Of a stretch of 64,000 nt of DNA, positions 1,239 through 63,158 are shown piece after piece. Where the stretch lies: NCBI RefSeq assembly GCF_048403405.1, contig NZ_CP183129.1. The stretch is one strand, 5' to 3'. The notes under the pieces were generated by a model. That model ran no database searches. It was not told where the DNA came from and was given only the letters and a program-made list of their open reading frames with translations. Source of the stretch: Escherichia coli (GTDB lineage: Bacteria > Pseudomonadota > Gammaproteobacteria > Enterobacterales > Enterobacteriaceae). The number at the start of each line of letters is the position of its first letter. Positions within the stretch are counted from its first letter, which is position 1. The position numbers and the translations under genes are program-made.

Positions 1239-1322
1239 TCAACGCCATCAAAACATTGACTTTTATCGCCGTAGCCTTTTCAATAAAGGTCTTTTGAAAA
1301 GTACCAAAAGGTAACGCAAGCA

Positions 1323-1367
1323 ATGAATGCTGCTATTTTCCGCTTCTTTTTTTACTTTAGCACCTGA
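1323..1367 (+). CDS. pheM: pheST operon leader peptide (14 aa, Phe-rich)
   Basis: ATG AAT GCT GCT ATT TTC CGC TTC TTT TTT TAC TTT AGC ACC TGA encodes [14 protein letters not shown], with 5 Phe codons; lies upstream of pheS and is followed by an attenuator hairpin. Confidence 0.85.
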
Positions 1368-1413
1368 CTCCAGGAGGCTAGCGCGTGAGAAGAGAAACGG
1401 AAAACAGCGCCTG

Positions 1414-1439
1414 AAAGCCTCCCAGTGGAGGCTTTTTTT
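1414..1439 (+). terminator. pheST attenuator terminator
   Basis: GCCTCC-CAGTG-GAGGC followed by TTTTTTT, about 50 nt downstream of the leader peptide stop and about 65 nt upstream of the pheS start. Confidence 0.8.
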
Positions 1440-1463
1440 GTATGCGCGTTTTGAAAAAATTAA

Positions 1464-4895: not shown

Positions 4896-5195
4896 ATGGC
4901 GCTTACAAAAGCTGAAATGTCAGAATATCTGTTTGATAAGCTTGGGCTTAGCAAGCGGGATGCCAAAGAACTGGTTGAACTGTTTTTCGAAGAGATCCGT
5001 CGCGCTCTGGAAAACGGCGAACAGGTGAAACTCTCTGGTTTTGGTAACTTCGATCTGCGTGATAAGAATCAACGCCCGGGACGTAACCCGAAAACGGGCG
5101 AGGATATTCCCATTACAGCACGGCGCGTGGTGACCTTCAGACCCGGGCAGAAGTTAAAAAGCCGGGTCGAAAACGCTTCGCCCAAAGACGAGTAA
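4896..5195 (+). CDS. ihfA: Integration host factor alpha subunit
   Basis: 99 aa [99 protein letters not shown]; 4 nt after the pheT stop. Confidence 0.95.
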
Positions 5196-5207
5196 TCTGA
5201 TCTAACT

Positions 5208-5235
5208 AAAAAGGCCGCTCTGCGGCCTTTTTTCT
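5208..5235 (+). terminator. Rho-independent terminator after ihfA
   Basis: AAAAAGGCCGC-TCTG-CGGCCTTTTTTCTTTTC. Confidence 0.75.
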
Positions 5236-5295
5236 TTTCACTGTCGAAGAGTCACCGTAAAATCAACGCCATGACACTTCAGCAGAACGGATACC

Positions 5296-29832: not shown

Positions 29833-29971
29833 CGTGTAATGGCTGCATGAAATAAACAATAAAATATAAATAACATTATCAGCCTGCTGACGGCTTGAAG
29901 AGAGTCACAGTATCTTGTGCAACATTATTGGAAAGCGTGAGGGGCGAGGTAGCGAAGCGGAAAAATGTTAA

Positions 29972-30075
29972 AAAAAAGCCCATCGTGGGAGATGGGCAAA
30001 GACTACACACAGCAATTCGTTGTTTCACTCAGGGGATTTCCATGCTTATAAATCAATATGTTGATTTATAACCGT
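29972..30075 (-). ncRNA. rprA: RprA small regulatory RNA (rpoS translational activator)
   Basis: The minus strand reads ACGGTTATAAATCAACATATTGATTTATAAGCATGGAAATCCCCTGAGTGAAACAACGAATTGCTGTGTGTAGTCTTTGCCCATCTCCCACGATGGGCTTTTTTT, matching the RprA sequence I recall, with an intrinsic terminator at its 3' end. Confidence 0.85.
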
Positions 30076-35511: not shown

Positions 35512-35703
35512 TTCTGACTTAATGCCGCAATTTCGCCAAATCGACCTGGATTAACCTCCGTCCAGGTTCGATAACCTTCTTAATACTGCTTATCTACCCG
35601 CCTGATATTGTTCAAAAATAATACTAATCGCAGTTTGTGTTAAAACGGCGGGTTAGCTTTATGAGATTATTCTTATCGCCCCTTCAAGAGCTAAGCCACT
35701 GAG

Positions 35704-35772
35704 AGTGCCGGAGATAAGCGCCGGATGGGGTAGAAACCCTTAAGCCTGTGTCGCACAGACTTAAGGGTTTTC
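35704..35772 (+). ncRNA. rydB: Probable small RNA RydB (boundaries approximate)
   Basis: A strong intrinsic terminator on the plus strand (CCCTTAAGCCTGTG-TCG-CACAGACTTAAGGG followed by TTTTCTTATTT) sits about 230 nt after ydiH, too far to be the ydiH terminator, at the place where K-12 has rydB between ydiH and sufA; the 5' end is a guess from the known ~68 nt length. Confidence 0.4.
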
Positions 35773-53441: not shown

Positions 53442-53747
53442 TCAGGCGAGTTTTGCCTGATTGATTTGACTAAGTGGCTCATTGACATCGAAAACTTTGG
53501 CGACAACTTCCTCAACGCCGAGATTTTTCAGTCGGGCAGTATGTTTTTCCAGATAGGCAAGGGCGCTTTTTTCATCAGTAAAAAGGTAGATCCCACCGGC
53601 TTCGTGGTTCTTTTCACTTTCTGTCCATACCTTCCACAGAAAACCAGGTTCCTGATTAATCGACTCAGCAAGCGGTTTAAGCTGCTCAGCCATTGCGTCG
53701 CCAAATGGGCCATTGAAAGAAAAATGAAGTTGTAACAAAGTTGCCAT
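53442..53747 (-). CDS. ydhR: Putative monooxygenase YdhR (Dabb-like)
   Basis: 101 aa, [56 protein letters not shown]. Confidence 0.85.
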
Positions 53748-53855
53748 AGCGATTCTCCTTCTGATAACGCATACGAAGACAGTGTAAATCTTTTAACGTA
53801 TTGGATACAGAGAAGAAACAGAGGGAAAAAAGGAGAAGACCAGATTAAGAAAATC

Positions 53856-53932
53856 TGGTGCGTCCGAGTGGACTCGAACCACCGACCCCCACCATGTCAA
53901 GGTGGTGCTCTAACCAACTGAGCTACGGACGC
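53856..53932 (-). tRNA. valW: tRNA-Val (anticodon GAC)
   Basis: The minus strand reads GCGTCCGTAGCTCAGTTGGTTAGAGCACCACCTTGACATGGTGGGGGTCGGTGGTTCGAGTCCACTCGGACGCACCA: a cloverleaf with a GAC anticodon and encoded CCA. Which copy is valV and which is valW is inferred from K-12 order. Confidence 0.9.
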
Positions 53933-53936
53933 AGGA

Positions 53937-54013
53937 TGGTGCGTTCAATTGGACTCGAACCAACGACCCCCACCATGTCAAGGTGGTGCTCTAACCAACT
54001 GAGCTATGAACGC
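53937..54013 (-). tRNA. valV: tRNA-Val (anticodon GAC)
   Basis: The minus strand reads GCGTTCATAGCTCAGTTGGTTAGAGCACCACCTTGACATGGTGGGGGTCGTTGGTTCGAGTCCAATTGAACGCACCA: same anticodon arm as the neighbour, different acceptor and T stems, 4 nt spacer. Confidence 0.9.
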
Positions 54014-54321
54014 AACGTTGTAGGTGACAACGGGGACGAATATTAGCGGCAGAGTGGGAAGGTGGCAAGAGGCAAAACGTAATTTTCTGCGCTATTTCGA
54101 CCGTTTGCAGAGCTTTTAAGCAAATTGGCTATATTTTGTTGATTTGCAAGGGCGATTTTTATTCAGGATCGCATTTACATCTGACACAACCCAATAATCT
54201 GTGTATCAGAGTTTAAACAGAGTTGTTTGCCACCATCTCAAAATCTGTCGTGGATAAATCCTCCGTAGCCTTTACACTTAGGTAGCAATAAAGGCACACA
54301 GATGCAGCAAAGGAATAAATC

Positions 54322-55578
54322 ATGGGATCTGATGCGAAAAACTTGATGAGCGACGGGAACGTGCAAATTGTTAAGACCGGCGAGGTCATTGGCGTGACGC
54401 AACTTACTGCAGGTGAGTTAATTGTTGAAGCTGGCGGAAGAGCCGAAAATACCGTGGTCACGGGGGCTGGCTGGTTGAAAGTGGCAACCGGTGGGATCGC
54501 CAAATGCACACAGTACGGCAACAATGGCACGCTATCGGTCAGCGACGGTGCCATTGCCACAGATATTGTTCAGTCCGAGGGAGGCGCAATTAGTCTCTCT
54601 ACGCTCGCTACGGTTAATGGCCGCCATCCCGAAGGTGAATTCAGCGTTGATAAAGGTTATGCCTGCGGTTTGTTGCTGGAAAATGGCGGTAACCTGCGTG
54701 TACTGGAAGGCCATCGCGCGGAAAAAATTATTCTCGATCAAGAGGGTGGCCTGTTGGTCAATGGGACAACCTCAGCGGTCGTGGTAGATGAAGGTGGTGA
54801 ATTGTTGGTGTATCCAGGTGGGGAAGCCAGCAATTGTGAGATTAATCAGGGCGGCGTTTTTATGCTGGCGGGGAAAGCCAGTGATACGTTGCTTGCTGGT
54901 GGCACCATGAATAATCTCGGTGGTGAAGACTCTGACACTATTGTTGAGAATGGAGGCATCTATCGTCTGGGTACGGATGGTCTTCAGCTCTACAGTTCCG
55001 GTAAGACGCAAAACCTGTCCGTTAATGTGGGGGGGCGGGCTGAAGTGCATGCCGGTACGCTGGAAAATGCGGTAATACAAGGTGGGACAGTCATCCTGTT
55101 GTCACCCACCAGCGCGGACGAAAATTTTGTCGTAGAGGAAGATCGCGCACCGGTTGAACTGACCGGTAGTGTTGCATTACTGGACGGCGCTTCAATGATT
55201 ATTGGCTATGGCGCAGATCTGCAACAATCAACGATTACTGTACAGCAGGGCGGTGTATTGATTCTCGACGGCAGTACGGTAAAAGGTGACAGTGTCACTT
55301 TCAGTGTTGGTAACATCAATCTCAATGGCGGAAAACTGTGGCTAATCACTGGTGCGGCAACGCATGTGCAACTGAAAGTGAAACGCCTGCGCGGAGAGGG
55401 AGCGATTTGCCTGCAAACCAGTGCGAAAGAAATTTCACCTGACTTCATCAATGTGAAAGGGGAAGTTACTGGTGATATACACGTTGAGATAACAGATGCC
55501 AGTCGGCAAACTCTGTGTAACGCACTGAAACTACAGCCAGACGAAGACGGGATTGGCGCAACGCTCCAGCCTGCGTAA
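54322..55578 (+). CDS. ydhQ: Autotransporter-passenger-like repeat protein YdhQ (no signal peptide, no beta-barrel)
   Basis: 418 aa, Gly/Thr/Asn-rich with ~19-residue beta-helix-type repeats (e.g. GGxxxNTVVxxGG, EINQGGVFML, VIQGGTVILL). Confidence 0.85.
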   Translation: MGSDAKNLMSDGNVQIVKTGEVIGVTQLTAGELIVEAGGRAENTVVTGAGWLKVATGGIAKCTQYGNNGTLSVSDGAIATDIVQSEGGAISLSTLATVNGRHPEGEFSVDKGYACGLLLENGGNLRVLEGHRAEKIILDQEGGLLVNGTTSAVVVDEGGELLVYPGGEASNCEINQGGVFMLAGKASDTLLAGGTMNNLGGEDSDTIVENGGIYRLGTDGLQLYSSGKTQNLSVNVGGRAEVHAGTLENAVIQGGTVILLSPTSADENFVVEEDRAPVELTGSVALLDGASMIIGYGADLQQSTITVQQGGVLILDGSTVKGDSVTFSVGNINLNGGKLWLITGAATHVQLKVKRLRGEGAICLQTSAKEISPDFINVKGEVTGDIHVEITDASRQTLCNALKLQPDEDGIGATLQPA

Positions 55579-62605: not shown

Positions 62606-62649
62606 TCCATTTCACTCCAGACCCTAACTTCAGCTCCTGCAAAATCGCA

Positions 62650-62665
62650 AGGTAAACGTTTGCCT
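62650..62665 (-). promoter_or_regulatory. PUR box (PurR autoregulatory operator) in the purR leader
   Basis: The minus strand reads AGGCAAACGTTTACCT, a 16-bp near-palindrome with the CAAACGTTT core, about 45 bp upstream of the purR ATG. Confidence 0.65.
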
Positions 62666-62904
62666 TTACACACCTTACGCACAACAAAAGTGTTGCGGTA
62701 CGCCGGAAAAACGACACGGAGCGTCAGGAAGGGGTCAATGGCCAGTACGCAAATAGTGTAAGCGTGGAATTTTGGCCGATCTTGACGAAAAGGGGAAGTG
62801 GTAAAAACACTTATCATTATAAATGACGGGAGATTTTTTCATCACAGTGTGTAAAAATGCGTAATATCACTTTTTGTGTGGTAATAAAAAAGGAGAAAAC
62901 TTGA

Positions 62905-62994
62905 TGAGCACCGACCTTAAATTTTCACTGGTAACAACGATTATCGTCCTCGGTTTGATCGTAGCCGTGGGTTTGACTGCCGCGCTGCACTGAT
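62905..62994 (+). CDS. ynhF: Small membrane protein YnhF (29 aa)
   Basis: ATG AGC ACC GAC ... CTG CAC TGA encodes MSTDLKFSLVTTIIVLGLIVAVGLTAALH, a single hydrophobic helix, with AAGGAGA 8 nt upstream. Confidence 0.8.
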
Positions 62995-63158
62995 TTCCTC
63001 TCGAGGGAGCGCGTTCTCCCTCGCATCTCCTTCCTGTTTGTTAGCAAAATGGCAAAAGTGTTTTCTCTTTTTGTTATTTTCATTTTTTTGTGATTGCTGT
63101 CATGCTTTCGCCACTTTAATGAATATCGCGTAATGACGCGAAGAGGTGGAGATAAGGC

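What the first reader, a model, noticed from the sequence alone, without database searches (positions are those of the whole stretch)
53856..54013. Tandem tRNA-Val(GAC) genes with divergent acceptor and T stems
Two 77-nt tRNA-Val genes separated by 4 nt share identical anticodon arms but differ at several acceptor-stem and T-stem positions, i.e. they are isoacceptor variants rather than a recent exact duplication.
Basis: seen in the sequence. Interest (0 to 1): 0.15.

Follow-up and report, generated by a model that had tools for sequence, protein, structure and literature searches.

The report
E. coli valV–valW valine tRNA genes
These are the two long-known tandem valine tRNA genes of E. coli (valV and valW, encoding tRNA-Val2B and tRNA-Val2A); they are real, correctly described and ordinary.

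Summary
ARAGORN and Rfam both call two 77-nt tRNA-Val(GAC) genes at 53937-54013 and 53856-53932, on the minus strand, 4 nt apart. They are 100% identical to E. coli K-12 valV (upstream) and valW (downstream), and lie in the usual ydhQ / valV valW / ydhR setting.

The six differences are three compensatory base-pair swaps: 5:68 U-A/C-G, 7:66 A-U/G-C and 50:64 U-A/G-C. Positions 8-50 are identical. The products are the classical tRNA-Val2B (valV) and tRNA-Val2A (valW). Both have been isolated as mature RNAs.

The operon's promoter, start sites and RNase P-dependent processing are published for this exact sequence.

Published EF-Tu data predict no affinity difference between the two.

Side observations:
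- A hairpin covering the CCA end of valW is conserved across genera. The literature says there is no structure there.
- Rare unequal-crossover chimeras exist, with one or three genes.
- An Rfam "HPnc0260" hit here is probably spurious.

Verdict: already known, low interest.

The parts
53937..54013 (-). valV, tRNA-Val(GAC), = tRNA-Val2B; first gene of the operon; A/U-richer acceptor and T stems (U5-A68, A7-U66, U50-A64)
   Evidence: ARAGORN. Rfam tRNA 70.1 bits. 100% identical to K-12 valV b1665. The 3' part equals the complement of the Val2B probe of PMC1851638.
53933..53936 (-). 4-nt intergenic spacer UCCU; RNase P cuts at its 3' side (the 5' end of valW)
   Evidence: Sequence. The same UCCU spacer is described in PMC2190699.
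53856..53932 (-). valW, tRNA-Val(GAC), = tRNA-Val2A; second gene; G/C-richer stems (C5-G68, G7-C66, G50-C64)
   Evidence: ARAGORN. Rfam tRNA 69.6 bits. 100% identical to K-12 valW b1666. Matches the Val2A probe of PMC1851638.
54040..54068 (-). sigma-70 promoter of the operon: -35 TTGCCA (54068..54063), 17-nt spacer, -10 TAATAT (54045..54040), followed by the G+C-rich discriminator TCGTCCCC
   Evidence: Consensus scan. It matches the -35 (5/6) and -10 (4/6) promoter placed by primer extension in PMC2190699. The -10 and discriminator are almost invariant across genera.
54014..54033 (-). 5' leader (about 19-20 nt) from the mapped start sites (two C residues) to the mature 5' end of valV; holds a small hairpin CGUUGU-CACCU-ACAACG; removed by RNase P
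   Evidence: Start sites 18/19 nt upstream of valV in PMC2190699. Hairpin in the fold of the primary transcript. Partial covariation in relatives.
53839..53859 (-). hairpin ACCAGAUU-UUCUU-AAUCUGGU whose 5' arm starts at the discriminator base and CCA end of valW
   Evidence: Terminator-like scan. Fold -12.3 kcal/mol, z = -3.9. Hairpins at the same place, with compensatory changes, in Citrobacter, Enterobacter, Lelliottia, Pseudescherichia and others. Function not shown.
53803..53838 (-). pyrimidine-rich, G-poor trailer (CUUCUCCUUUUUUCCCUCUGUUUCUUCUCUGUAUCC) between valW and ydhR; candidate termination region
   Evidence: Sequence. PMC2190699 reports that ydhR is not co-transcribed and proposes Rho-dependent termination. 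Similar C/U-rich trailers in other genera.

Best explanation
This is the valV-valW operon of E. coli. It consists of two tandem genes for the GUC/GUU-reading valine tRNA (anticodon GAC).

How it works:
- A sigma-70 promoter with a G+C-rich discriminator, typical of stable-RNA promoters, makes one dicistronic transcript.
- RNase P cuts at the 5' end of each tRNA. This both separates the two tRNAs across the 4-nt UCCU spacer and creates their mature 5' ends.
- 3' exonucleases trim back to the encoded CCA.
- Both tRNAs are charged by valyl-tRNA synthetase.

The two genes differ by three compensatory base-pair substitutions: two in the acceptor stem and one in the T stem. These give the classical species tRNA-Val2B (valV) and tRNA-Val2A (valW).

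The split is old. The same two sequences are kept side by side across many Enterobacteriaceae genera. The differences lie outside the known recognition elements, so they are most likely selectively near-neutral compensatory changes. Each was then frozen by the strong purifying selection that acts on any tRNA.

Shown: identity, structure, conservation, and (from the literature, for this exact sequence) the promoter and processing. Inferred: neutrality of the differences and the age of the split.
For: - Two tRNA-Val(GAC) calls.
- 100% identity to K-12 valV and valW and to their flanks.
- Same gene order ydhQ / tRNA tRNA / ydhR.
- The locus is present in 5,425 of 5,426 complete E. coli genomes.
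- All six differences are compensatory. Across 14 distinct relatives, 100% of cloverleaf cells are paired and 6 pairs change on both sides; 0 of 500 shuffles reach this.
- The predicted promoter matches the primer-extension promoter. RNase P dependence, the UCCU spacer and the lack of co-transcription with ydhR are published (PMC2190699; PMC4176162).
- Val2A and Val2B were isolated separately with probes that match valW and valV (PMC1851638). Both carry acp3U47 (PMC6895100).
- The exact V+W pair occurs in 57 of 120 sampled loci, from at least 17 named genera, with spacers of 3-18 nt.
- At pair 50:64, U-A and G-C both have a mean ddG of 0.0 kcal/mol for EF-Tu binding (PMC3239215 table 2).
- A35, C36 and A73 are present in both genes. 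These are the main ValRS identity elements as I recall them from the Horowitz and Tamura work; I did not check that in the library.
Against: - Nothing contradicts the identification.
- Neutrality of the differences is not shown. The computed cloverleaf energies differ by about 5 kcal/mol (valV -26.2, valW -31.3), which could matter under heat or stress.
Frequencies are therefore not representative.
- Termination is unsettled. The literature says Rho-dependent with no structure, yet a conserved hairpin is present.
Confidence: 0.95

Rival explanations
1. The two isodecoders are functionally specialised. For example, they could differ in thermal stability, turnover under stress, susceptibility to tRNA-targeting toxins or phage nucleases, or RNase P processing order. 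On this reading the heterotypic pair is kept by selection for having both.
For: The exact V+W pair is kept in many genera although the spacer and flanks change. Erwiniaceae also keep a second, A/U-rich acceptor-stem variant next to the W type (X-W-X arrays). The cloverleaf stability of valV and valW differs by about 5 kcal/mol.
Against: Serratia, Rahnella, Xenorhabdus and Photorhabdus have only W-type copies (WW or WWW), so one type suffices. EF-Tu affinity is predicted to be equal. The differences avoid the anticodon, the discriminator base and all loops. The papers read here report no functional difference.
Confidence: 0.15
2. A recent tandem duplication in which one copy is drifting towards a pseudogene.
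For: The genes are in tandem, and a 43-nt core is identical.
Against: Every change is compensated, and both genes fold into perfect 21-pair cloverleaves with near-equal Infernal scores. Both sequences are identical in distant genera. Both mature RNAs have been purified.
Confidence: 0.01
3. The plus strand here encodes an antisense small RNA of the Rfam family HPnc0260, overlapping the 3' end of valW and the ydhR 5' region.
For: Rfam RF02194 matches 53731-53894 (+) over its full length at 112 bits, against a gathering score of 59.
Against: The last 40 or so positions of the model are simply the reverse complement of a tRNA T arm and acceptor end. They also hit the antisense of valV at 36.6 bits. 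Without the tRNA part the score is 44 bits, below gathering. No promoter-like site was found on the + strand in 53600-54400. The family was defined in Helicobacter pylori next to ureA (PMC5385501).
Confidence: 0.03

Closest known systems
E. coli K-12 valV (b1665) and valW (b1666), tRNA-Val2B and tRNA-Val2A
   Same: The sequence of both genes, the spacer, the promoter, the leader and most of the trailer is identical, and the neighbours are the same (ydhQ, ydhR).
   Different: In the compared stretch outside the flanking coding sequence, the only difference is a run of six T in the window against five in K-12, in the trailer downstream of valW.
RNase P-dependent polycistronic tRNA operons (valV valW, leuQPV, secG leuU; Mohanty and Kushner)
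   Same: This locus is the founding example. It has a short, non-A/U-rich spacer and is separated by RNase P rather than RNase E.
   Different: None in sequence. Processing was not and cannot be tested here.
Homotypic tRNA-Val(GAC) arrays of other Enterobacterales (W-W or W-W-W in Serratia, Rahnella, Xenorhabdus, Photorhabdus; five copies of a near-W type in a Proteus)
   Same: Same tRNA, in tandem arrays. The W-type sequence is identical to E. coli valW, except in Proteus, whose copies differ from valW at one base pair (7:66 A-U).
   Different: All copies in an array are alike and the spacers are longer (20-30 nt). E. coli and its relatives have a heterotypic V-W pair with a short spacer.
Canonical intrinsic terminators after tRNA operons
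   Same: There is a hairpin just after the last tRNA. In Citrobacter and Pseudescherichia it is followed directly by a U-run.
   Different: In E. coli the stem has only 3 G-C pairs of 8, includes the CCA end itself, and the U-run starts 7 nt after the stem. The published view is Rho-dependent termination.

Membership tests
Bacterial elongator tRNA (Rfam RF00005) | Score above the family's gathering threshold | tested here: met
   70.1 and 69.6 bits against 29.
Bacterial elongator tRNA (Rfam RF00005) | Cloverleaf with 7/4/5/5-bp stems, a 7-nt anticodon loop and a T loop TTCGAGT | tested here: met
   ARAGORN drawings. 21 of 21 pairs are standard in both genes and in 14 relatives.
tRNA-Val(GAC), E. 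coli valV/valW (Val2B/Val2A) | Anticodon GAC at positions 34-36 | tested here: met
   ARAGORN. The K-12 annotation says tRNA-Val(GAC).
tRNA-Val(GAC), E. coli valV/valW (Val2B/Val2A) | Sequence identity to the reference genes and the same neighbours | tested here: met
   100% identity over both genes and the spacer. ydhQ and ydhR flank the pair.
tRNA-Val(GAC), E. coli valV/valW (Val2B/Val2A) | ValRS identity elements A35, C36 and A73 (recalled from the literature) and actual charging with valine | not testable with these tools
   The three bases are present in both genes. Charging is established only by the classical literature on Val2A/2B, which was not re-tested here.
RNase P-dependent dicistronic tRNA operon | Single promoter, short spacer without an A/U-rich RNase E site, U at -1 of each tRNA | tested here: met
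   Promoter. Spacer UCCU and U at -1 before both genes. Same description in PMC2190699.
RNase P-dependent dicistronic tRNA operon | Separation of the two tRNAs depends on RNase P and not on RNase E | not testable with these tools
   Shown experimentally for the identical K-12 sequence (PMC2190699; PMC4176162).
Rfam HPnc0260 antisense RNA (RF02194) | Score above gathering that does not rest on an overlapping tRNA gene | tested here: not met
   112 bits with the tRNA part, but 44 bits without it, below the gathering score of 59.
Rfam HPnc0260 antisense RNA (RF02194) | A promoter and transcript on the plus strand | tested here: inconclusive
   No promoter-like site on the + strand in a simple scan. 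No expression data were available.
Intrinsic (Rho-independent) terminator | G+C-rich stem followed at once by a U-run | tested here: inconclusive
   The scan lists the E. coli site (8 pairs, 3 G-C), but its tail is CUUCUCCUUU. Relatives have 10-13-bp stems, some followed directly by a U-run.

The most novel reading that the evidence does not exclude
The heterotypic V-W pair may be actively stabilised. The compensatory differences sit at both ends of the molecule, around a 43-nt identical core. Any crossover or partial gene conversion between the copies therefore produces a tRNA with a mismatched acceptor stem. This is what is seen in the rare one-gene (E. coli EC7518 and Q65) and three-gene (Intestinirhabdus) recombinants. 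Selection against such chimeras would protect the two-gene array from collapse and from homogenisation, and/or the two isodecoders have distinct roles. A second, smaller novelty: the conserved hairpin that sequesters the CCA end of valW may be a real terminator or 3'-processing element that the literature missed.
Probability: 0.2. Interest if true: 0.3.

Novelty: already known. Interest (0 to 1): 0.08.

Why it matters
It matters little as a discovery. These genes were sequenced as RNAs in the early 1970s (from memory) and are fully annotated. The side results give modest leads. One is a well-conserved example of a heterotypic isodecoder pair, with natural recombinant chimeras. The other is a conserved hairpin at the 3' end of valW that disagrees with the published statement that no structure exists there. 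That could refine the model of how this much-used RNase P model transcript ends.

Tried and rejected
1. Identity bands from BLAST on the 158-nt pair. 2,044 genomes fell in the '95-99%' band. Reading one of them (H28) showed both genes and the spacer to be exact. The band is an artefact of joining off-diagonal pieces of a repeated query, so I give no count of exact copies per genome.

2. A hand-written regular expression for the tRNA failed. It was replaced by ARAGORN on all loci.

3. The idea that the T-stem difference tunes EF-Tu affinity. Pair 50:64 is one of the three specificity pairs, but U-A and G-C both average 0.0 kcal/mol, so I rejected it.

4. The HPnc0260 antisense RNA. I rejected it as probably an artefact of a model that ends in antisense-tRNA sequence.

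5. The 'second place per genome' in the BLAST output is not a second locus. The one-gene strains show a single place.

6. No metagenome, viral or protein searches were run, because the identity was settled by the E. coli and species-representative collections.

Full report
**Observation**

ARAGORN finds only two tRNA genes in the 64-kb window. Both are tRNA-Val with anticodon GAC, at 53856-53932 and 53937-54013, on the minus strand. The Rfam tRNA model scores them 69.6 and 70.1 bits against a gathering score of 29. Read on the coding strand, each gene is 77 nt with an encoded CCA, and the spacer is TCCT.

The pairwise alignment shows six differences, at gene positions 5, 7, 51, 65, 67 and 69. 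On the ARAGORN cloverleaves these are three base pairs, each Watson-Crick in both genes:
- acceptor 5:68, U-A upstream and C-G downstream;
- acceptor 7:66, A-U upstream and G-C downstream;
- T stem 50:64, U-A upstream and G-C downstream.

Positions 8-50 (D arm, anticodon arm, variable loop) are identical. It did not say that the genes are on the minus strand.

**Identity**

A 601-nt stretch around the genes matches E. coli chromosomes at 100%. 5,425 of 5,426 complete genomes have the locus, annotated 'tRNA-Val (x2)' next to ydhR.

In K-12 MG1655 the genes are valV (b1665) and valW (b1666), both annotated tRNA-Val(GAC), between ydhQ and ydhR. Aligned with K-12, the two genes, the spacer, the 135 nt upstream that were compared and almost all of the trailer are identical. 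The only difference outside coding sequence is T6 in the window against T5 in K-12, downstream of valW. The upstream gene (54013..53937) is valV and the downstream one (53932..53856) is valW.

In window coordinates, ydhR is at 53442-53747 (-) and ydhQ at 54322-55578 (+), by transfer.

The affinity-purification probes of Miyauchi et al. settle the naming. The Val2A probe is the complement of the valW 3' part and the Val2B probe is the complement of the valV 3' part (PMC1851638). So valW encodes tRNA-Val2A and valV encodes tRNA-Val2B, and both exist as separate mature RNAs. Both carry acp3U47 (PMC6895100). Other papers list Val2A and Val2B as the products of valV and valW (PMC3378859).

**How the locus works**

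The consensus scan finds one promoter on the coding strand: TTGCCA, 17 nt, TAATAT, at 54068..54040. It is followed by the G+C-rich discriminator TCGTCCCC.

Mohanty and Kushner mapped two start sites at C residues 18/19 nt upstream of valV. They noted a sigma-70 promoter with 5/6 and 4/6 matches, which is this one (PMC2190699). They also showed the following:
- the dicistronic transcript is separated by RNase P at the 5' ends of both tRNAs, independently of RNase E;
- the UCCU spacer has no A/U-rich RNase E site;
- PNPase and RNase II remove the 3' trailer;
- ydhR is not co-transcribed (confirmed in PMC4176162).

Both genes have U at -1. From memory, this suits RNase P. These steps are shown in the literature for this exact sequence. 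I did not and could not re-test them.

**Age and maintenance of the two variants**

I scanned one genome per species for tandem pairs of this tRNA, leaving the six variable positions and the spacer free. ARAGORN on all loci and classification gave these results:

| Array type | Loci | Where |
|---|---|---|
| Exact V then exact W | 57 | at least 17 named genera, including Escherichia, Citrobacter, Enterobacter, Lelliottia, Kosakonia, Cedecea, Mangrovibacter, Shimwellia, Siccibacter, Silvania, Phytobacter, Superficieibacter, Pseudescherichia and Tenebrionibacter |
| W-type only (WW or WWW) | 19 | Serratia, Rahnella, Xenorhabdus, Photorhabdus and a few others |
| X-W-X | 11 | Erwiniaceae (Erwinia, Pantoea, Tatumella, Mixta, Rosenbergiella) and one unnamed Enterobacteriaceae genome bin |

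- In the V-W loci the spacer is 3-18 nt, and the flanks differ between genera.
- In the X-W-X arrays, X shares U5-A68 with V but has U7-A66.
- Over 14 distinct sequences, every cloverleaf cell is a standard pair and six pairs change on both sides. No shuffle of 500 reaches this.

I conclude that W is the widespread form. The V form arose before the radiation of the Enterobacteriaceae genera sampled, and both have been held unchanged since.

There are two caveats. The pattern demanded near-V/W sequences, and the sample is truncated, so proportions are not representative. Salmonella and Klebsiella, among others, simply did not appear in it.

**Do the differences matter?**

Pair 50:64 is one of the three T-stem pairs that set EF-Tu affinity. 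In the compiled measurements, U-A and G-C at 50:64 both average 0.0 kcal/mol (PMC3239215 table 2). Both genes share G49-U65 and U51-A63. No EF-Tu difference is therefore predicted.

The differences avoid the anticodon and the discriminator base A73. From memory, these are the main ValRS identity elements.

The computed cloverleaf energies differ: -26.2 kcal/mol for valV and -31.3 for valW. This is the only measurable contrast I found. Neutral compensatory divergence is the best reading. Specialisation is not excluded.

**Recombinants**

One E. coli hit carried a single gene. It is the valV 5' half joined to the valW 3' half. This gives U5-G68 and an A7xC66 mismatch. A search with that junction found it in two complete genomes of 5,426, EC7518 and Q65. 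Their chromosome sizes and locus coordinates are nearly the same.

Intestinirhabdus alba has the reciprocal product: V, then a W5'/V3' chimera (C5xA68 mismatch, G7-U66), then W, with two 4-nt spacers.

These look like the two outcomes of unequal crossing-over in the identical core. The chimeric cloverleaves are weakened or are no longer the minimum-energy fold. Assembly error is not excluded.

**Hairpin at the 3' end of valW**

The scan and the fold show ACCAGAUU-UUCUU-AAUCUGGU at 53859..53839, with -12.3 kcal/mol in context and z = -3.9. The primary-transcript fold keeps it next to two cloverleaves.

In 24 distinct sequences from relatives, a hairpin starts at the same place. It is often longer, GCACCA plus 5-6 nt pairing with a downstream ...UGGUGC, at -14 to -18.5 kcal/mol. 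The two positions just after the CCA covary: U-A, A-U, G-C and G-U at one, and U-A and A-U at the next.

In Citrobacter and Pseudescherichia a U-run follows directly. In E. coli it starts 7 nt later. The 2007 paper states that the downstream sequence has no predicted structure and infers Rho-dependent termination, with the data not shown.

The loci were chosen for having a hairpin, and few independent lineages are involved. The covariation is therefore suggestive only.

**Rfam HPnc0260 hit**

RF02194 matches 53731-53894 on the plus strand at 112 bits. The 3' end of the model is the reverse complement of a tRNA T arm and acceptor strand. The same part hits the antisense of valV at 36.6 bits. 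Without the tRNA part the score is 44 bits, below the gathering score of 59.

No plus-strand promoter-like site was found. The family was defined for a Helicobacter pylori transcript next to ureA (PMC5385501). I treat the hit as an artefact.

**Verdict**

The finding is real, exactly as described and correctly interpreted, and it is already known in detail. Interest is low. The conserved CCA-end hairpin and the natural chimeras are the only items that might repay a small follow-up.

Noticed in passing
window 53839-53859 (-); relatives L003, L007-L010, L018, L022, L024, L027, L032, L033, L036, L047, L052, L058, L075, L084, L087, L089, L090, L105, L114, L117: A hairpin whose 5' arm begins in the discriminator base and CCA end of valW. 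It is conserved in position across several genera, with compensatory changes just after the CCA. Some relatives have a U-run directly after it. The published account of this operon says there is no structure and proposes Rho-dependent termination.
   Followed up: partly
L124 402-478 (E. coli Q65, NZ_CP180222.1) and NZ_CP085183.1 (EC7518): Two of 5,426 complete E. coli genomes have a single chimeric gene in place of the pair: the valV 5' half plus the valW 3' half, giving U5-G68 and an A7xC66 mismatch. This looks like the deletion product of unequal crossing-over. It would be the only tRNA-Val(GAC) gene at the locus.
   Followed up: partly
L105 (Intestinirhabdus alba, NZ_WMJZ01000032.1): A three-gene array: V, a W5'/V3' chimera (C5xA68 mismatch, G7-U66), then W, with 4-nt spacers. 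This is the reciprocal (duplication) product of the same kind of crossover.
   Followed up: partly
window 53731-53894 (+): An Rfam RF02194 'HPnc0260 antisense RNA' hit at 112 bits overlaps the valW 3' end, the intergenic region and the ydhR start. The score depends on the antisense-tRNA end of the model (44 bits without it). It is probably a database artefact that could mislead automatic annotation.
   Followed up: yes
window 54015-54031 (-): A small hairpin, CGUUGU-CACCU-ACAACG, in the 5' leader just before valV. The stem is GCUGU/ACAGC in two relatives (L028, L100), which hints at conservation.
   Followed up: no
window about 53821-53826 (-): The T-run downstream of valW is six T here and five T in K-12 MG1655 and in strain 2014C-3655. 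This is a length polymorphism in the trailer.
   Followed up: no
L043, L068, L077, L086 (Cedecea and 'Enterobacter' sp.): Besides the V-W pair, an extra exact copy of the V-type gene lies 1.5-4.1 kb further along the locus, on the same strand.
   Followed up: no
window 1317-1441 (+), 5137-5295 (+), 29968-30075 (-), 35678-35738 (+), 62606-62996 (+): Other Rfam hits above gathering in the window: Phe leader, STnc540, RprA, RydB and STnc550. All are known enterobacterial RNAs, as expected for this part of the E. coli chromosome.
   Followed up: no
search output: For a query that is itself a tandem repeat, the '95-99%' identity band of the similarity search is an artefact of joining off-diagonal pieces. 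The loci checked were exact.
   Followed up: yes
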